From Vicinamibacterales bacterium (lineage in GTDB: Bacteria; Acidobacteriota; Vicinamibacteria; Vicinamibacterales; 2-12-FULL-66-21): a stretch of DNA of 64,000 nucleotides. The notes under the pieces were generated by a model that was given only the letters and a program-made list of their open reading frames with translations, did no database searches and was not told the DNA's origin. The stretch's first letter is position 1; each line of letters begins with the position of its first letter. The stretch lies in contig DASTVZ010000012.1 of the NCBI GenBank assembly GCA_035758845.1, positions 35,097 through 99,096 of the forward strand, read 5' to 3'. Positions 47,784-58,064 of the stretch are shown piece by piece. A program made the position numbers and the translations under genes.

Positions 47784-49043
47784 TTACACCTGCGGCAACG
47801 CCGCCGCCTGATCCCCCGATCGGAGGTACGCTTCGAAATCCTCGAGCGATCGCCCGATTTCGACCCTCGGCGCGACGCGCGGACCGGTCGTCTCCGCCGC
47901 GGTCTTGTAACCGTTCCCGGTAATGCACACCACGACCGACTCGTTCGATGGTATGACGCCCGCGCGGACCAGTTGGATCGCGCCTGCCAGTGTCGCACCG
48001 CCCGCCGGTTCGGTGAACACGCCTTCGGTCTCCGCCAAAAGCTCCATCGCCTGCAGAATTTCGTCGTCACTCGACGCCACACCAGTGCCGCCGGTTGATT
48101 TGACCGTCCGAACGACCTGGAAGCCGTCAGCAGGATTTCCGATCGCAATCGACTTCGCAATCGTGGCCGGTTTTACCGGTTCAGGAAATTCGAGATCCTG
48201 CTGGAGCGCGCGCACGACCGGTGCGCATCCCGCCGCCTGAGCCGCATGAATCTTCGGCAACTCGCCATCGACGAGGCCGATCTCACGCAACTCGCGGAAG
48301 CCGCGAAGGATGCGCGGAAGCAGTGTTCCTCCCGCAACCGGCGAGACCAGATGCTGCGGAAATCGCCAGCCTAGTTGTTCGGCGACCTCGAATCCTACGG
48401 TCTTGGCCCCTTCGGCGTAGTAACTCCGCAGGTTGATGTTTGCGAATCCCCATCCGAGCCTGTCCGCGATCTGCGTACAGAGCCGGTTCACATCGTCGTA
48501 GTTTCCGCGCACGCCGATGAGATGTGGCCGGAAGACGGCGGAACCGAGCACCTTGCCAAGTTCGAGGTCGTGGGGAATGAAAACGTAGCACTCGAGACCA
48601 AGTCGGGCGGCATGCGCCGAGACGCTGTTGCCGAGATTACCAGTGGAAGCGCAACCAAACACGGTGAATCCGAGTTCCACCGCGCGCGTCGCAGCCATCG
48701 ACACAACGCGATCCTTGTAGGACAGCGTCGGATGATTCACCGAATCATCTTTGATATACAGCTCCTGCAATCCAAGCCGCTTCGCCAGCCGATCCGCGCG
48801 AATGAGCGGCGTGTACCCCGAATGAAACCCGGTTCGCGGCTCGCCGGTGATCGGCAGCAGCTCCTTGAAGCGCCACACGTTCCTGGCGCGCCGCTCGATG
48901 AGATCGCGCGTCACGGCACCACGAACGGCATCGTAATCGTAGGCAACCTCCAGCGGGCCGAGACACTGATCGCAGACCCACAGTGCTTCGGCGGGGAACT
49001 TCGTCCCGCACAAGTGGCACTGCAGCCCTGTCATGAACGTCAT
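47784..49043 (-). CDS. Threonine-synthase-like PLP enzyme (second ThrC paralogue, candidate homocysteine-forming enzyme)
   Basis: 419 aa with an N-terminal Cys4 ribbon (CHLCG...CDQC) and PLP-lysine motif HPTLSYKDR. The start overlaps the thrB stop (ATGA). Confidence 0.75.
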   Translation of the reverse strand: MTFMTGLQCHLCGTKFPAEALWVCDQCLGPLEVAYDYDAVRGAVTRDLIERRARNVWRFKELLPITGEPRTGFHSGYTPLIRADRLAKRLGLQELYIKDDSVNHPTLSYKDRVVSMAATRAVELGFTVFGCASTGNLGNSVSAHAARLGLECYVFIPHDLELGKVLGSAVFRPHLIGVRGNYDDVNRLCTQIADRLGWGFANINLRSYYAEGAKTVGFEVAEQLGWRFPQHLVSPVAGGTLLPRILRGFRELREIGLVDGELPKIHAAQAAGCAPVVRALQQDLEFPEPVKPATIAKSIAIGNPADGFQVVRTVKSTGGTGVASSDDEILQAMELLAETEGVFTEPAGGATLAGAIQLVRAGVIPSNESVVVCITGNGYKTAAETTGPRVAPRVEIGRSLEDFEAYLRSGDQAAALPQV

Positions 49044-53206: not shown

Positions 53207-53233
53207 CGCGATGACGACATCTCCTTTTCTCGA

Positions 53234-53319
53234 CTTGGTCCGTGTTAATCCGTGGCTTGGTCCGTGTTCTTCCGTGTTAATCCGTGGCTTGGTCCGTGTT
53301 CTTCCGGGTTAATCCGTGG
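53234..53319 (-). repeat. Tandem 32-nt repeat built from periodic CACGGA motifs, in the 5' UTR of the sulfite-reduction operon
   Basis: Plus-strand units CTTGGTCCGTGTTCTTCCG(T/G)GTTAATCCGTGG, two full copies plus one 22-nt copy. On the minus strand this reads CCACGGATTAA-CACGGAAGAA-CACGGACCAAG repeated. Confidence 0.8.
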
Positions 53320-53322
53320 CTT

Positions 53323-53360
53323 AAATAAAAAAGCCCGGAAGGCTTTGGCCTCCCGGGCTT
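53323..53360 (-). terminator. Intrinsic terminator (attenuator) of the Cys leader
   Basis: Minus strand: GCCCGGGAGGC-caaa-GCCTTCCGGGC (11 bp including one G.U), followed by TTTTTTATTT. Confidence 0.8.
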
Positions 53361-53398
53361 CGGTTACATCTCGTTGCGCTGGATGTTGTTTCAGGACA

Positions 53399-53482
53399 TC
53401 AACGCGTGGACCGAAGGCAGGGAAGCCCTACGAGCTGCATACAGCAGCAACAAATACACGCGCAGGTATTCCCTGAAAACAT
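53399..53482 (-). CDS. Cys-rich leader peptide (27 aa)
   Basis: Not in the ORF track. ATG TTT TCA GGG AAT ACC TGC GCG TGT ATT TGT TGC TGC TGT ATG ... TGA translates to MFSGNTCACICCCCMQLVGLPCLRSTR. Lies between a promoter and a terminator, upstream of sulfur-assimilation genes. Confidence 0.7.
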   Translation of the reverse strand: MFSGNTCACICCCCMQLVGLPCLRSTR

Positions 53483-53490
53483 TCGGTCAG

Positions 53491-53519
53491 TTATAACGTT
53501 CACTCGTCCGTAAAGTCAA
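53491..53519 (-). promoter_or_regulatory. Sigma-70-type promoter of the Cys leader
   Basis: Minus strand: TTGACT, 17 nt, TTATAA. The leader ATG starts 8 nt after the -10 box, so the transcript may be leaderless. Confidence 0.6.
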
Positions 53520-53623: not shown

Positions 53624-54949
53624 TCACGCCGGAATCGCGAGATCGAGGCGGCGGCGGATCTGATCGTAATCGTTGGGCAGCTCAATAGGGCGATTGGCCT
53701 GAGTAGTGGCGATTCCGGGGAGCTTCCCGGCGTGATAATCGGCCTTGAAATCGGTGAATTTCAGGCCGCTTGCCGTCGAAATGACGACGACCCGCTCGTC
53801 CCGCTTGATTTCGCCACGCTTGGCCAGTTTGATGAGCGCGGCGAGGGCGACCCCCGTGTGCGGACATGCGAACATCCCGGTCCGGTCCGCTCGTGCGACC
53901 GCGTCGGCAAGCTCCTGTTCGCTCGCCTGCTCCACCAATCCGTTGCAGCGTTGAAGGGCGCCAATAGCTTTCTGGATTGAAACAGGATTCCCGATCTGTA
54001 TGGCTGAGGCCATTGTCGGTTTCGCCACCACCGGCTCGAATCGCCAGCCGTTTCGTGACGCGAGATACAACGGGTTCGCCGCTTCCGCCTGAGCAGCGAT
54101 CAGGCGTGGCACGCGCGCGACCAGACCCAGATCGCGCATCATTTCGAATCCAGCGGCGAACGCGCCGATGTTTCCGAGGTTACCGCTCGGAACAACCACG
54201 ACGTCCGGTACTTGCCAATCGAACTGTTGCGCAATCTCGATCGAGGCGGTCTTCTGTCCTTCGAGCCGCAGGCTGTTCATCGAGTTTGCCAGGTAAAGGC
54301 CTTCCTCTTCAGCCAGCTTCTTGATGATCGCCATGCAACCGTCGAAGTCCGTGTCGATCGACAGAACAGTCGCACCGTTGGCGAGCGGTTGAACAAGTTG
54401 CGCGACGGTGACCTTGCCTCGAGGAAGTACGACGATCGCTGGAATTCCTGCCGCCGCCGCGTACGCGGCGAGTGAGGCCGATGTGTCACCAGTGGATGCA
54501 CAGCCGACGGCGCGGATCTGATGCCCGTTCGCGATCATCTGCCGCACCATCGAGACGAGCACCGTCATCCCGAGGTCCTTGAAGGAACCGGTATGCGAGT
54601 TGCCGCACAACTTCACCCAGACTTCTTCGATTCCGATGCCGCGTCCGAAAGCCTCGGCGAGGAAGAGATTCGTGCCCCCCTCATCCATCGAGACGACGTT
54701 GTTGTCGTCGATTTGCGGGCAGACCCATTCCTTCTTGCCCCAGACGCTGGACCCGTACGGCCATGTGGTTCGCTTGTAACGCTCGTCGAACAACCGCATC
54801 CACGCCGCGGCGCTCCGATCGCGTAGGGCTTCCAGATCGTGTGCGACCTCGAGCAGGCCTCCGCACGTCGGGCAGCGATAGATGATGGTGTCGAGCGCGT
54901 ACGACCCCGGGCATCCGGCAATACAACGAAATGCAGCTCGGTAGCTCAT
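53624..54949 (-). CDS. thrC: Threonine synthase
   Basis: 441 aa with PLP-lysine motif [11 protein letters not shown] and an N-terminal CxxC...CPTCG ribbon. Directly downstream of hom. Confidence 0.9.
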
Positions 54950-55021: not shown

Positions 55022-56332
55022 TTAAACGGTCGCGACCGGAGCGGCCACGGAGGCCGGCAGCGCTTCTCGCGACAACACCGGCAGCGCGACCGGCGCTTCT
55101 CCATGAAACTCGAACGCTGAAAGATCCTTCATCGCGCGCTCGATCGACGAAACGGGCGACGGCTCGAGGCTGACGACAAACGGCCGGCGGCCGACTGGAA
55201 AGCCTGGCTCCTGCAGGATGGCGTCGATGTTGATCGAATGACGAGCGAACGCCGACGCCAGCGACGCGATGATGCCAGGCCGGTCGGCAACCGTGAAACG
55301 TACATAGTACGCGCTTGTGAACTCCGGCGACACGTCCGCGTGGAGCACCCCGGAGCGGAGCCCGTATGGCACCTCGTCCCTGGCGATTGCCAGCAAGTCC
55401 GAGACAACGGCGACGGCGGTCGGTTCTCCGCCTGCGCCTGGGCCACCAAACGTCGTTTCTCCGCCAAACCGGCCCTGCAGGGTCACGATGTTTTCACTTC
55501 CACGAACGCGCGCGAGCGGCGACTCGAGCGGCACCAGCGCCGGTCCCACCGCGGCGCGAACCAGGCTTGAATCGCTCGTCCGCTCCGCCCACGCAACCTG
55601 CCGAATGGTACACCCCATCTGACGCGCGTAGACGAAATCCACGGCGTCAATCGCGTCGATCCCGCGGGTCTGAATCGCGTCCGGCGTCACGTCGACGGCG
55701 AGAGCAATCTGCGACAGGATCGCGAGCTTGGCCTGGGCATCGATGCCGTCGATATCCTGCGACGGATCTGCCTCGGCCAGTCCCAGCGTTTGCGCGTCAG
55801 CCAATGCCTCGCGGAACGGCAGGTGCTCGCGTTCCATTCGACTGAGGATGTAATTGCAGGTGCCGTTCAGGATTCCTGTCACGCGCGTCAGGCTGTCGCC
55901 CGCGAGTCCATGCTCGATCGCGCGAACCACCGGCACACCACCGGCAACCGCTGCTTCAAATCTCAGATGCCGTTCCAGTCGCGATGCCTCGGCGAGGAGC
56001 TCGGGGCCGCGATGCGCGATCACTTGTTTGTTTGCGGTGACCACCGACTTGCCCGCTTGGAGCGCCTTGCGAATCCAACACTCGGCCGGTGAACGTCCGC
56101 CGATCAACTCCACGAAGACATCGACATCATCGGCAAGCGCGTCGTCGATCGACTCGGTCCAGCGAACCCTGGGATCGATCCAGGGGACGCGTTTCCGTTC
56201 GATCCCGCGATTGACGATCACGGTCAGGCGCAGCTCGGGAGGGGCGAGTTCCTGAAGCAGCCTGGCAACGGAGCGTCCGACGGTTCCGAAGCCGGCAATT
56301 GCGACACGTGTGGGTCTGTTAGCGCGCGTCAT
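55022..56332 (-). CDS. hom: Homoserine dehydrogenase (with C-terminal ACT domain)
   Basis: 436 aa with VAIAGFGTVGRSV, VVTANK and GILNGTCNYIL. Confidence 0.9.
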   Translation of the reverse strand: MTRANRPTRVAIAGFGTVGRSVARLLQELAPPELRLTVIVNRGIERKRVPWIDPRVRWTESIDDALADDVDVFVELIGGRSPAECWIRKALQAGKSVVTANKQVIAHRGPELLAEASRLERHLRFEAAVAGGVPVVRAIEHGLAGDSLTRVTGILNGTCNYILSRMEREHLPFREALADAQTLGLAEADPSQDIDGIDAQAKLAILSQIALAVDVTPDAIQTRGIDAIDAVDFVYARQMGCTIRQVAWAERTSDSSLVRAAVGPALVPLESPLARVRGSENIVTLQGRFGGETTFGGPGAGGEPTAVAVVSDLLAIARDEVPYGLRSGVLHADVSPEFTSAYYVRFTVADRPGIIASLASAFARHSINIDAILQEPGFPVGRRPFVVSLEPSPVSSIERAMKDLSAFEFHGEAPVALPVLSREALPASVAAPVATV

Positions 56333-56344
56333 ACAGCAACCTCA

Positions 56345-56433
56345 CTGCGCGTGGGGCCCCACCCCCACGCGCTCTCGCTGGGCGGCGCCGCTTCACGCCG
56401 GAGCCTTCGGCGTAGGCGGACGCAGGCGCTCTT
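56345..56433. repeat. GC-rich intergenic repeat with core hairpin GCGCGTGGGG-ccccac-CCCCACGCGC
   Basis: Aligns in inverted orientation with 37212-37308. Its core resembles 5933-5956, and its distal part resembles 18249-18267. Confidence 0.75.
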
Positions 56434-56435
56434 TC

Positions 56436-56473
56436 AAAAAAAAACCCGCCGGCGTTTTCAAGCCGGCGGGTTT
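56436..56473 (-). terminator. Intrinsic terminator (attenuator) of the Thr/Ile leader
   Basis: Minus strand: CCCGCCGGC-ttgaaaac-GCCGGCGGG, followed by T9. About 100 nt upstream of hom. Confidence 0.8.
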
Positions 56474-56498
56474 GGTCGAGCGCGATTTCTTTGTGAAC

Positions 56499-56594
56499 TC
56501 AGATTGCGTTCGCCAACCGACCACCGGCATGAGACGTTCGCGGCGTGCGAATTCGCATGCACATCGGGCACGTGATGGTGATCGTCGCAAACAT
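56499..56594 (-). CDS. Thr/Ile-rich leader peptide (31 aa)
   Basis: Not in the ORF track. ATG TTT GCG ACG ATC ACC ATC ACG TGC CCG ... TGA translates to MFATITITCPMCMRIRTPRTSHAGGRLANAI. Confidence 0.7.
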   Translation of the reverse strand: MFATITITCPMCMRIRTPRTSHAGGRLANAI

Positions 56595-56636
56595 GCAGTC
56601 TCGAGGGCACGATCTTCAGACCGTGCCGAAACAGCG

Positions 56637-56666
56637 AGTATAGAAGTCGGGCAATGCGAACGTCAA
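56637..56666 (-). promoter_or_regulatory. Sigma-70-type promoter of the thr leader
   Basis: Minus strand: TTGACG (56666-56661), 18 nt, TATACT (56642-56637). Confidence 0.6.
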
Positions 56667-57004
56667 GTCGACAGCGTTCACCGTCACGCTGAAACGTTAC
56701 CGCCGGTTACGTCGAAGGTACGAAGAAGCGAAGGTGTCGTTCGCATGCAGTTCTCGGACATCCTGACGCGCGAAGCGCGTGGCGGCGGACGCCTTGTCTC
56801 TGCCCGGCTGGCGCACTGGGCTCCAGCCGGGGTCATCTTGTCATTTCAGACATTTAGCTGTTCTTCGATTCTTCAATTCTTCGCCGTAAGACCAGTGGGT
56901 ACGTCTCAGCTCGACAGTGGGCGCTTCTTTGCTATTAGCGTACTTTATGATGTTGAAAACATTATAAATTTGACTTCATTGCCATGACCGGTCAGGATAA
57001 ACCC

Positions 57005-57082
57005 ATGCGCTTTCGCGTACCTGCCGTCGTCGGTGTCGTAGGCCGGATTAGCGGCCGGCCGGAGACCGCTCCAGGCGAGTGA
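57005..57082 (+). CDS. Val-rich leader peptide (25 aa)
   Basis: Not in the ORF track. AGGA SD lies 7 nt upstream. ATG CGC TTT CGC GTA CCT GCC GTC GTC GGT GTC GTA GGC ... TGA translates to MRFRVPAVVGVVGRISGRPETAPGE. An in-frame ATG at 56984 would add 7 aa. Confidence 0.6.
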   Translation: MRFRVPAVVGVVGRISGRPETAPGE

Positions 57083-57112
57083 ACGGCGCCACAATTCAGT
57101 AAAGAGACACCA

Positions 57113-57152
57113 GGGGCCGTCACTCGAACCAGAGGCGACGGCCCTTTCCTTT
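57113..57152 (+). terminator. Terminator-like hairpin (attenuator) upstream of pheA-ilv
   Basis: GGGCCGTC (57114-57121) pairs with GACGGCCC (57137-57144), followed by TTTCCTTT. It ends 46 nt before the pheA GTG. Confidence 0.55.
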
Positions 57153-57197
57153 AGGGGCGGGCCCGACGGTCCGTCGCGGTGAGGAGGAAGGGTCAGC

Positions 57198-58064
57198 GTG
57201 CGAGTCGCGTATCAAGGGGAACCAGGCGCTTTCAGTGAAGCCGCCGTGCTGCGGCTGCTGCCGGATGCTGAGCCGCGCCCATACCCGACCTTCGACGAGG
57301 TGTTCGATGCCGTCTCAAACGGGTCGGTCAACCTCGGTGTGGTGCCGATCGAAAACTCCATCGGCGGATCGATTCACCGCAATTACGACCTGCTGGTGCA
57401 GCGCGAGCTCTCAATCGTCGGCGAAGTGCAGGTGCCGGTGGTGCACAACCTGCTCGCGCTCCCCGGAGTGCGCCTCGAGGAAGTTCGCCGAGTGCTGTCG
57501 CATCCTCAGGCGTTGGCCCAGTGCGCGGCGTTCCTGCGCGGGCTCGAACACGTCGAGGCGATTGCGACCTACGACACCGCGGGCAGCGCAAAGATGGTGC
57601 GCGACGAACAGCGTCGCGACACGGCGGCCATCGCGTCCGAGCGTGCCGGCACCCTCTTCGGGCTGGAATCGCTGCGCGCCGGCATTCAGGACTACGACGA
57701 CAACATCACACGCTTTCTCGCCATCTCGCGTCAGCGCGTGCCGCTCGGCACACCGGACAAGACCAGCCTCGTCTTCACACTGAAGAGTGCTCCAGGAGCG
57801 CTGTTCAAAGCGTTGAGCGTGTTTGCGCTCCGCGACATCGATCTGTCCAAGCTTGAATCCCGTCCCGTGCCTGGACGTCCGTGGGAATACCTGTTCTATC
57901 TCGACGTCGCCGCCGCGCGAGAGGATCTGCAGTGCGCCCGCGCCATGGTGCACCTCGCTGAATTTGCGCCATCGCTTCGTACCCTGGGGTCGTACCCGCG
58001 ATGGCGCGAGCCGGAGGCGAACGCGGAAAACGTTCCGGCGCAGGAAGGAGCGCGCCGTGGCTGA
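57198..58064 (+). CDS. pheA: Prephenate dehydratase (with ACT domain)
   Basis: 288 aa, GTG start after GAGGAGGA. Contains [24 protein letters not shown] and an ACT region ending ESRP. Confidence 0.9.

What the first reader, a model, noticed from the sequence alone, without database searches (positions are those of the whole stretch)
56436..56666. Thr/Ile leader peptide and attenuator upstream of hom-thrC
The minus strand carries a promoter TTGACG, 18 nt, TATACT, then a ~40-nt 5' region. The ORF encodes MFATITITCPMCMRIRTPRTSHAGGRLANAI, with regulatory codons ACG ATC ACC ATC ACG at positions 4-8. Segment CGAUCACC, which is the Thr-Ile-Thr codons themselves, pairs with GGUGGUCG (8 bp). The overlapping GCCGGUGG pairs with CCGCCGGC, the 5' arm of a 9-bp terminator followed by nine T. 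hom starts about 100 nt further on. This mirrors the E. coli thr leader (Thr/Ile run) in a very different, high-GC lineage.
Basis: partly seen in the sequence, partly recalled or inferred. Interest (0 to 1): 0.65.

Follow-up and report, generated by a model that had tools for sequence, protein, structure and literature searches.

The report
Threonine leader-peptide attenuator before hom-thrC
A short, conserved, threonine-rich upstream reading frame with a switchable transcription terminator sits in front of the homoserine dehydrogenase/threonine synthase genes of a soil acidobacterium (order Vicinamibacterales). It most likely works like the classic E. coli thr attenuator but is not related to it by sequence.

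Summary
T9 is the only A/T run of 8 or more in the 64-kb window.

The element is conserved. All 12 relatives found through Hom homology alone (71-91% identity, Vicinamibacterales/Acidobacteriota) carry it, as do 21 metagenome loci found by a DNA motif. It always lies in front of hom, or of aspartate kinase-hom.

- Frame: ORF length changes only in steps of 3 nt, while the spacer after the stop takes every length from 25 to 33 nt.
- Codons: Thr is 38% of codons 2 to about 9.
- Switch: segment 2 (GCCGGYGG) can pair either with segment 1 (the Thr codons) or with the terminator's 5' arm in 24 of 24 sequences. One compensatory change fits both partners.
- Read-through: in 8 loci hom starts 14 nt after the T run, so hom must be transcribed through the terminator.

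Corrections: Thr is the conserved signal, whereas Ile is specific to this clade and interchanges with Met. There is no match to Rfam Thr_leader.

No RNA data exist. This is a well-supported new member of a known kind. Cys-rich and Val-rich leader attenuators lie next door.

The parts
56637..56666 (-). Promoter: TTGACG (-35), 18-nt spacer, TATACT (-10)
   Evidence: the only promoter-like hit in 4 kb. TTGACG/TATACT is conserved in most relatives. In L010/L021/L023/L027-L029/L033 it is replaced by TTGTAG-17-TAGAAT, built from TAGAACC tandem repeats.
56606..56627 (-). 5'-UTR hairpin GGCACGGUC-UGAA-GAUCGUGCC, a clade-specific insertion between the transcription start and the leader ATG
   Evidence: Present in the window, L002, L019, L025 and L032; absent in L001, L003 and L007, where the ATG lies 12-17 nt after the -10 box. 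L032 carries a compensatory change (A-U to G-C), which indicates that this strand is transcribed and folded.
56499..56594 (-). Leader ORF of 31 codons: MFATITITCPMCMRIRTPRTSHAGGRLANAI, then stop
   Evidence: The ORF is 31-33 codons in 29 of 29 loci. ATG-to-core distance is 36/39/42 nt and core-to-stop is 57/51 nt (multiples of 3 only). Stop-to-terminator distance takes every value from 25 to 33 nt.
56571..56585 (-). Regulatory codons ACG ATC ACC ATC ACG (Thr-Ile-Thr-Ile-Thr)
   Evidence: Thr makes up 69 of 180 N-terminal codons in 24 sequences, using synonymous ACG/ACC/ACT. Alignment codon 22 is T20/I4 and codon 28 is T17/M7.
56568..56579 (-).
   Evidence: There are 9 pairs with segment 2 and 97.7% of cells are paired. 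Pair col25-col78 covaries (G-C in 14, A-U in 7).
56537..56552 (-). Central hairpin AUUCGC / GCGAA(U) with a 5-nt loop, nested inside the 1:2 helix; part of the palindrome GCGAAUUCGC
   Evidence: 98.6% of cells are paired, and G-U wobbles are tolerated (L036 and the pair 50-64).
56520..56528 (-). Segment 2, GCCGGUGGU (Ala-Gly-Gly codons). It pairs either with segment 1 or with the terminator's 5' arm.
   Evidence: The 2:3 helix has 8 pairs, paired in 100% of cells. The C-to-U change in this clade keeps G-U with segment 3 and is compensated to A-U in segment 1.
56479..56484 (-). Conserved CGCGC(A/U) box between the stop codon and the terminator; possible 3' strand of a small helix P3 that encloses the stop codon
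   Evidence: The box is nearly invariant. P3 is paired in 84% of cells with no covariation, so its role is unproven.
56436..56473 (-). Intrinsic terminator: AAACCCGCCGGC-UUGAAAAC-GCCGGCGGGUUU plus the T9 run (segments 3 and 4)
   Evidence: Hairpin energy is -24.2 kcal/mol. The arms are invariant in 24 of 24 sequences while the loops vary. T9 is the only A/T run of 8 or more in 64 kb.
55022..56332 (-). hom, homoserine dehydrogenase (436 aa), the first regulated gene
   Evidence: NF004976 scores 393.7 bits against a cut-off of 205; every leader with downstream sequence precedes hom (23 loci) or aspartate kinase-hom (3 loci).
53624..54949 (-). thrC, threonine synthase (441 aa), the second gene of the unit
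   Evidence: TIGR00260 scores 222.8 bits against a cut-off of 167.1. A separate promoter, Cys leader and terminator follow at 53330-53519, so the regulated unit is hom-thrC.

Best explanation
This is a classical ribosome-mediated transcription attenuator that adjusts hom-thrC expression to the supply of charged tRNA-Thr.

Proposed mechanism:
1. Transcription starts a few nucleotides after TATACT, and a ribosome begins translating the 31-codon leader.
2. When Thr-tRNA is plentiful, the ribosome runs through the Thr codons and over segment 2 to the stop codon. Segment 2 is then either covered by the ribosome or re-pairs with segment 1 behind it. The terminator hairpin (segments 3:4) forms and RNA polymerase stops at the U9 tract.
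3. When Thr-tRNA is scarce, the ribosome stalls on codons 4-8, which are themselves segment 1. Segment 2 (GCCGGUGG) stays free and pairs with the terminator's 5' arm as soon as that arm is made. The terminator cannot nucleate, and polymerase reads on into hom-thrC.

Shown here: the anatomy, its conservation, frame maintenance, Thr-codon enrichment, and the mutual exclusivity of the helices in every sequence.

Inferred: translation of the ORF, stalling, the kinetic order of folding, and the physiological response.
For: 1. Conservation without ascertainment bias. All 12 relatives found through Hom homology alone have leader, terminator and T-run directly upstream of hom or aspartate kinase-hom (L001-3, L007, L008, L010-12, L034-37). 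L034 shows only the 3' part because the fetched flank ends there. This holds even where the upstream neighbour differs (L036/L037).
2. Coding signature. Distances inside the ORF change only by multiples of 3, whereas the spacer after the stop takes every length from 25 to 33 nt. The in-frame ATG lies 12-17 nt after the -10 box where no hairpin insert is present.
3. Thr makes up 38% of N-terminal codons, with synonymous variation.
4. Switch logic. Full-length folds give 1:2 plus the terminator in 24 of 24 sequences. With a ribosome footprint placed on the Thr run, and the transcript cut before segment 4, the 2:3 helix forms in 24 of 24. The divergent leaders L012 and L035-37 behave alike, though in L035 a neighbouring G-rich stretch rather than segment 2 pairs with the terminator arm.
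5. The off structure is paired in 98.4% of cells and the on helix in 100%, against 25-45% when partners are slid by 1-3 columns. One compensatory pair fits both partners of segment 2. Many G-U wobbles are compatible only with RNA of this strand.
6. The hom ATG lies 14 nt after the T run in 8 loci, leaving no room for a separate promoter.
7. The same lineage has Cys-rich and Val/Ile-rich leader ORFs with terminators on adjacent operons. Classical attenuation is therefore in use in this lineage.
Against: - There is no transcript or expression evidence. Only soil metagenome and metatranscriptome contigs exist, and none covers the leader.
- Covariation is thin: one pair, probably a single evolutionary event. 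The terminator and segment 2 are invariant, and 21 of the sequences were retrieved with a motif that fixes segment 2 and the central hairpin.
- There is no excess of variation at third codon positions. The evidence for translation therefore rests on frame, start, stop and Thr codons.
- Without a ribosome, the truncated transcript prefers 2:3 over 1:2 in 21 of 24 sequences (mean -6.6 kcal/mol, -12.7 in the window). The off state therefore needs a kinetic trap or ribosome occupancy.
- The stop codon lies 19 nt after segment 2, so a ribosome waiting at the stop does not cover segment 2.
- Two peripheral leaders (L012, L035) have only 2 Thr codons each.
- The Shine-Dalgarno sequence is weak and the 5' UTR is very short in many loci.
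Confidence: 0.75

Rival explanations
1. The architecture is the same attenuator, but it is multivalent. Ile and Met codons, and not only Thr codons, act as stall sites. hom would then respond to all three end products that depend on homoserine.
For: - At six codon positions the family alternates almost only among Thr, Ile and Met: col 19 I9/T8/M3, col 22 T20/I4, col 28 T17/M7, col 55 T11/M9, col 58 T19/M4, col 64 I14/M6/T2/V2.
- Met codons 11 and 13 are nearly invariant. A ribosome stalled there would still cover segment 1.
- E. coli thr attenuation is known to respond to Thr and Ile (established knowledge).
Against: - ACN, AUH and AUG differ by one transition at the second codon position, so the interchange may be neutral drift.
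- Several of these codons lie in or next to conserved RNA helices, which confounds the signal.
- Stalling at codons 17-18 would cover or abut segment 2 and favour termination, not read-through.
- No Met-codon leader attenuator is known to me.
Confidence: 0.2
2. It is a translation-independent RNA switch in which a protein or a small ligand binds the conserved GCGAAUUCGC...GCGAAU core and sets the terminator/antiterminator choice. The ORF would be incidental.
For: - Nucleotide conservation of the core is as strong at third codon positions as at the other two.
- The conserved CGCGCA box has no proven role.
- Actinobacterial LEU elements are a precedent: leader ORFs are present but classical attenuation is doubted (PMC1262725).
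Against: - Indels occur in steps of 3 nt only inside the ORF.
- The in-frame ATG is kept at a fixed distance from the -10 box despite a variable N-terminal sequence.
- Thr codons are kept through synonymous changes.
- There is no Rfam match to any riboswitch or T-box.
- The neighbouring operons carry Cys-rich and Val-rich leader ORFs that match their own pathways. That is hard to explain unless the leader ORFs are translated.
Confidence: 0.07
3. It is an independent small gene or small RNA (a 31-aa Cys/Met-rich peptide) with its own promoter and a constitutive terminator. It would not be a regulator of hom.
For: - It has its own promoter and a strong terminator.
- The C-S-M-C-M motif is conserved.
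- Leader peptides can act in trans (peTrpL, PMC7298713, listed).
Against: - In all 26 leader loci with downstream sequence it lies directly upstream of hom or aspartate kinase-hom.
- In 8 loci hom starts 14 nt after the T run, with no room for another promoter.
- Codon-position entropy shows no protein-type selection.
- The conserved antiterminator pairing has no purpose in a stand-alone gene.
Confidence: 0.04

Closest known systems
E. coli / enterobacterial thr operon leader (thrL, Rfam RF00506 Thr_leader)
   Same: A short leader ORF rich in Thr (and here Ile) codons, an intrinsic terminator before the first threonine-pathway gene, and mutually exclusive 1:2, 2:3 and 3:4 helices with the regulatory codons inside segment 1.
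   Different: - No sequence or structure homology (no Rfam hit at E <= 10).
- Only 3-5 Thr codons, against 8 Thr plus 4 Ile in thrL.
- It controls monofunctional hom-thrC (or lysC-hom-thrC), not thrABC.
- The stop codon lies after segment 2, not before it.
- The 5' UTR is very short in many loci.
- The host is a 63% G+C acidobacterium.
trp operon leader (Rfam RF00513 Trp_leader)
   Same: The same four-segment logic. There is a weak sub-threshold Rfam match (20.1 bits, E = 0.27; gathering score 41) over the terminator half, 56436-56521.
   Different: The match is driven by the terminator and is far below threshold. There are no Trp codons, and the pathway is different.
Actinobacterial leader ORFs upstream of ilvB, leuA, trp and cys genes (Seliverstov et al. 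2005, PMC1262725)
   Same: High-G+C bacteria with short ORFs that carry runs of end-product codons overlapping hairpins and U runs. That paper also predicts a Cys leader, as found next door here.
   Different: That study found no RNA element for threonine genes in Actinobacteria. Several of its cases lack full attenuator components or failed mutational tests. Here all the components are present.
Thr/Ile-rich leader ORFs plus terminators upstream of hom in L005 (Lentisphaerae) and L006 (Verrucomicrobiota)
   Same: hom is preceded by a short ORF and then by a G+C hairpin with a T7 run. The ORFs are MKTVVTKIIIVSGGS and (GTG start) MKQVTTIGITARGRLMRG.
   Different: The sequence is unrelated to the Vicinamibacterales leader, and the leaders are shorter. 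I saw them by eye only and did not analyse them further.

Membership tests
Classical leader-peptide (ribosome-mediated) transcription attenuator | A short ORF starting close to the promoter, with its reading frame maintained in relatives | tested here: met
   The ORF is 31-33 codons in 29 of 29 loci. In-ORF distances are 36/39/42 and 57/51 nt, against 25-33 nt (all values) after the stop.
Classical leader-peptide (ribosome-mediated) transcription attenuator | The leader is enriched in codons for the end product of the regulated pathway | tested here: met
   Thr makes up 69 of 180 (38%) N-terminal codons, with synonymous variation. Exceptions: L012 and L035 have only 2 Thr codons each.
Classical leader-peptide (ribosome-mediated) transcription attenuator | An intrinsic terminator lies between the leader ORF and the first structural gene | tested here: met
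   A 9-12 bp G+C stem plus a T7-T9 run in every locus where the region is complete (L021 has T2-A-T8). hom starts 14 nt after the T run in 8 loci.
Classical leader-peptide (ribosome-mediated) transcription attenuator | Mutually exclusive antiterminator (2:3) and anti-antiterminator (1:2), with the regulatory codons inside segment 1 | tested here: met
   Both helices are possible in 24 of 24 sequences. A footprint on the Thr run yields 2:3 in 24 of 24. There is one compensatory pair. This rests on thermodynamic folding only.
Classical leader-peptide (ribosome-mediated) transcription attenuator | A non-stalled ribosome prevents the antiterminator, so termination is the default when the amino acid is plentiful | tested here: inconclusive
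   The stop codon lies 19 nt after segment 2, so a ribosome at the stop covers the P3 strand but not segment 2. Without a ribosome, the truncated transcript prefers 2:3 in 21 of 24 sequences. Kinetics would decide.
Classical leader-peptide (ribosome-mediated) transcription attenuator | A short terminated transcript exists, and read-through rises on starvation for the amino acid | not testable with these tools
   No RNA run covers the leader.
Rfam RF00506 Thr_leader (thrL of Gammaproteobacteria) | A match to the family covariance model | tested here: not met
   There is no hit at the gathering threshold, nor at E <= 10 with permissive filters on 56300-57250.
T-box or known riboswitch classes | A match to any Rfam cis-regulatory model | tested here: not met
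   Searches give only sub-threshold hits, all driven by the terminator.

The most novel reading that the evidence does not exclude
The leader may be a three-way sensor for all homoserine-derived amino acids, in which the conserved Met codons (11 and 13, plus the Thr/Met-alternating positions) act as genuine stall sites alongside Thr and Ile. To my knowledge that would be the first Met-codon leader-peptide attenuator. Together with the adjacent Cys-rich and Val/Ile-rich leaders, it would show that Vicinamibacterales run much of their amino-acid biosynthesis by classical attenuation.
Probability: 0.12. Interest if true: 0.6.

Novelty: new member of a known kind. Interest (0 to 1): 0.42.

Why it matters
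Regulation in Acidobacteriota is almost unstudied. [quoted passage not shown] My literature searches found nothing on thr or hom attenuation in this phylum.

This element is a clean, conserved and testable example. It lies within about 4 kb of two further leader-peptide attenuators (Cys and Val/Ile). That suggests classical attenuation is a main mode of amino-acid control in an abundant group of soil bacteria.

It also illustrates that the thr-type attenuator appears to have arisen independently of the enterobacterial one. In practice, it gives annotators a motif for placing the hom-thrC promoter and 5' end in metagenome-assembled genomes. It also offers a compact Thr-responsive part for high-G+C hosts.

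Tried and rejected
- Rfam at gathering and permissive thresholds: no family. The weak Trp_leader and small-RNA hits are driven by the terminator.
- RNA evidence: the runs are soil metagenomes plus two metatranscriptome-type runs kept as contigs. None covers the leader, so there is no information on a terminated transcript.
- Third-codon-position test: entropy is 0.91/0.85/0.80 for positions 1/2/3 outside the helices, so there is no coding-type bias. This gives no support for a functional peptide and no evidence against a leader.
- Frame-openness control: frame 0 and one alternative frame are both free of stops, so the test is uninformative in this G+C-rich sequence.
- Extra helices: P3 (columns 85-90 with 122-127) is paired in 84% of cells, and AUGCGA/UCGCAU (43-48 with 92-97) in 76%. 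Neither covaries, and I make no claim for them.
- The idea that the palindrome GCGAATTCGC is a DNA operator: G-U wobbles in the hairpin and in helix 1:2 fit RNA, not DNA. It remains only a minor possibility.
- Literature searches found no prior description for Acidobacteriota. The 2010 survey by Lopatovskaya and colleagues of attenuators across phyla, which I recall from memory, is not in the library and could not be checked.

Full report
**Observation**

- Promoter TTGACG-18 nt-TATACT at 56666-56637. It is the only sigma-70-like hit in 4 kb.
- A 22-nt hairpin in the 5' UTR (56627-56606).
- The ORF from ATG 56594 to TGA 56499, encoding MFATITITCPMCMRIRTPRTSHAGGRLANAI.
- A terminator with a 9-bp G+C stem, extendable to 12 bp, followed by T9 (56473-56436).

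hom starts at 56332 and thrC follows; both pass the NCBIfam cut-offs. The leader RNA folds better than all 200 shuffles (-83 kcal/mol, z = -3.5). T9 is the only A/T homopolymer of 8 or more in the 64-kb, 62.8% G+C window.

**Organism and relatives**

Hom-based searches place the window in Vicinamibacterales, phylum Acidobacteriota. I obtained two sets of relatives.
- An unbiased set of 12 loci found only through Hom protein similarity (71-91% identity): L001-3, L007, L008, L010-12 and L034-37.
- A motif-ascertained set of 21 metagenome loci, L013-33.

Every unbiased locus has the same arrangement: a promoter, a leader ORF of about 31 codons, a G+C hairpin and a T7-T9 run directly upstream of hom. 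L034 shows only the 3' part because the fetched flank ends there.

In L008, L011, L022 and L034 the arrangement lies upstream of an aspartate kinase gene that precedes hom. L036 and L037 keep the leader although their upstream neighbour is a different gene, so the element travels with hom.

In 8 loci hom begins 14 nt after the T run. hom must therefore be transcribed through the terminator. The roughly 100-nt spacer in the window is a clade-specific insertion.

**Is the ORF translated?**

Among 24 distinct leaders:
- the distance from the ATG to the conserved core is 36, 39 or 42 nt;
- the distance from the core to the stop is 57 or 51 nt;
- the untranslated spacer between the stop and the terminator takes every length from 25 to 33 nt.

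The ATG lies 12-17 nt after the -10 box wherever the 5' hairpin insert is absent. Thr accounts for 69 of 180 codons between codon 2 and the conserved Cys, using ACG, ACC and ACT.

Variation is not concentrated at third codon positions. The peptide as such is therefore not under protein-type selection, which is what is expected of a leader whose only job is to be translated.

Ile is not conserved. The two Ile codons of the window are Thr, Ala or Met in other clades. Two peripheral leaders (L012, L035) have only two Thr codons each.

**The switch**

RNAalifold on the 24-sequence alignment A2 gives three helices:
- helix 1:2, ACCRYC-AC-G-U-GC (the Thr-x-Thr-Cys codons) with GCCGGYGGU (the Ala-Gly-Gly codons);
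- a nested hairpin, AUUCGC/GCGAAU;
- the terminator.

Counting pairs shows 98.4% of cells paired for this off structure. The alternative 8-bp helix between segment 2 and the terminator's 5' arm is paired in 100% of cells. Both fall to 25-45% when partners are slid by 1-3 columns.

Only one pair covaries: G-C in 14 sequences and A-U in 7. The change is informative nonetheless. The C-to-U substitution in segment 2 is matched by G-to-A in segment 1, and it still forms G-U with the invariant segment 3. Frequent G-U wobbles fit RNA of this strand rather than a DNA operator.

I also folded each sequence with a 28-nt footprint placed on the Thr run, cutting the transcript before segment 4. This gives the 2:3 helix in 24 of 24 sequences. 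Full-length RNA gives 1:2 plus the terminator in 24 of 24. The divergent leaders L012 and L035-37 show the same alternation, although in L035 the strand that pairs with the terminator arm is a neighbouring G-rich stretch.

**Caveats**

- The truncated transcript prefers 2:3 even without a ribosome in 21 of 24 sequences (mean -6.6 kcal/mol; -12.7 in the window).
- A ribosome at the stop codon would not cover segment 2. Termination under Thr sufficiency must therefore rest on a kinetic 1:2 trap or on ribosome transit. I cannot test this.
- Covariation is minimal, and much of the conservation in the 21 motif-derived loci is imposed by the search pattern.
- No RNA data cover the leader.

**Comparison with known systems**

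The element works like the enterobacterial thr leader but is not a member of that family. Rfam Thr_leader gives no match even at E <= 10. It meets the structural criteria of a classical leader-peptide attenuator.

The papers I could search describe such attenuators in Proteobacteria, Actinobacteria and some Firmicutes. They report no threonine element in Actinobacteria and note that acidobacterial attenuators are unannotated (PMC1262725, PMC2965389). I found nothing on Vicinamibacteria.

**Surroundings**

The same 4-kb region holds two more leader-peptide attenuators.
- A Val/Ile-rich leader with a terminator lies upstream of the divergent pheA-ilvD-ilvBNC genes.
- A Cys-rich leader (CACICCCC) with a 14-bp terminator lies upstream of the siroheme synthase/sulfite reductase/thrB genes.

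Both are conserved in relatives. This raises the prior that the Thr leader is functional. It also shows that the regulated unit here is hom-thrC only.

**Verdict**

Thr, not Thr/Ile, is the conserved signal. This is a new, non-homologous member of a well-known kind of regulator, found in a poorly studied phylum.

Noticed in passing
window 56961-57153 (+ strand); also L001-L003, L007, L008, L013, L019, L029-L033 and others: A second leader-peptide attenuator points the other way, towards pheA-ilvD-ilvBNC. Its parts in the window are: a conserved AT-rich box ATTATAAATTTGACT (56961-56975; TTGACT is a likely -35); an ORF from ATG 57006 to TGA 57083 encoding MRFRVPAVVGVVGRISGRPETAPGE (family consensus MRFRV[LF]AVVGVVGRIIGRP..., rich in Val/Ile); and a terminator GGGGCCGTCAC...GCGACGGCCC plus a T-rich tail (57114-57153) ahead of the pheA GTG at 57198. 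The ATG lies about 5 nt after a possible -10 box, so the mRNA may be leaderless.
   Followed up: partly
window 53330-53519 (- strand); also L007, L008, L010-L012, L034-L037: A third leader-peptide attenuator lies between thrC and the siroheme synthase/sulfite reductase/thrB genes. It has a promoter TTGACT-18-TATAAC (53519-53490). The ATG at 53482, only 7 nt after the -10 box, opens MFSGNTCACICCCCMQLVGLPCLRSTR (stop at 53399). A 14-bp terminator with TTTTTTATTT follows at 53361-53320. The Cys run (CACNCCCC) is conserved in every relative checked.
   Followed up: partly
window 56341-56386 (palindrome 56349-56370): The roughly 90-nt insertion between the attenuator terminator and hom contains a G+C palindrome, GCGTGGGG-CCCCAC-CCCCACGC. 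Many unrelated contigs in soil metagenome and metatranscriptome runs match just this stretch with different flanks. This suggests a dispersed REP-like repeat. There is only one copy in the window.
   Followed up: partly
window 53222-53320 (- strand); L001 2400-2455; promoter regions of L010, L021, L023, L027-L029, L033: Short tandem repeats occupy the intergenic regions. CCACGGATTAACACGGAAGAACACGGACCAAG-like units lie after the Cys-leader terminator. Related units (GAACACGGA and GGCCACGGAAGAACACGGA..TAACACGG, read on the opposite strand) appear at L001 2400-2455, upstream of the Val/Ile-leader region. TAGAACC repeats of about 11 nt supply the hom-leader promoter (TTGTAG-17-TAGAAT) in one clade.
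   Followed up: no
L005 about 2865-2962 and L006 about 2653-2754 (upstream of hom): The distant hom genes of a Lentisphaerae and a Verrucomicrobiota genome are also preceded by short Thr/Ile-rich ORFs (MKTVVTKIIIVSGGS; GTG-start MKQVTTIGITARGRLMRG). Each is followed by a shared GGCTCATGAGGGGCTGAGCCCGCC motif and a CCCCTCG-AAAG-AGGGG hairpin plus T7. This looks like an unrelated family of hom attenuators in the PVC group.
   Followed up: no
L008, L011, L022, L034: In some Vicinamibacterales the leader controls a three-gene unit, aspartate kinase-hom-thrC, with an aspartate kinase gene inserted between the attenuator and hom. In L012 and L035-L037 thrC is missing after hom.
   Followed up: partly
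window 47784-49043 and 53624-54949: Two threonine synthase paralogues lie on the same strand. One sits in the Thr-leader unit. The other follows thrB at the end of the unit led by the Cys leader, together with sulfite reductase and siroheme synthase genes. This is an unusual mix of threonine and sulfur-assimilation genes.
   Followed up: no
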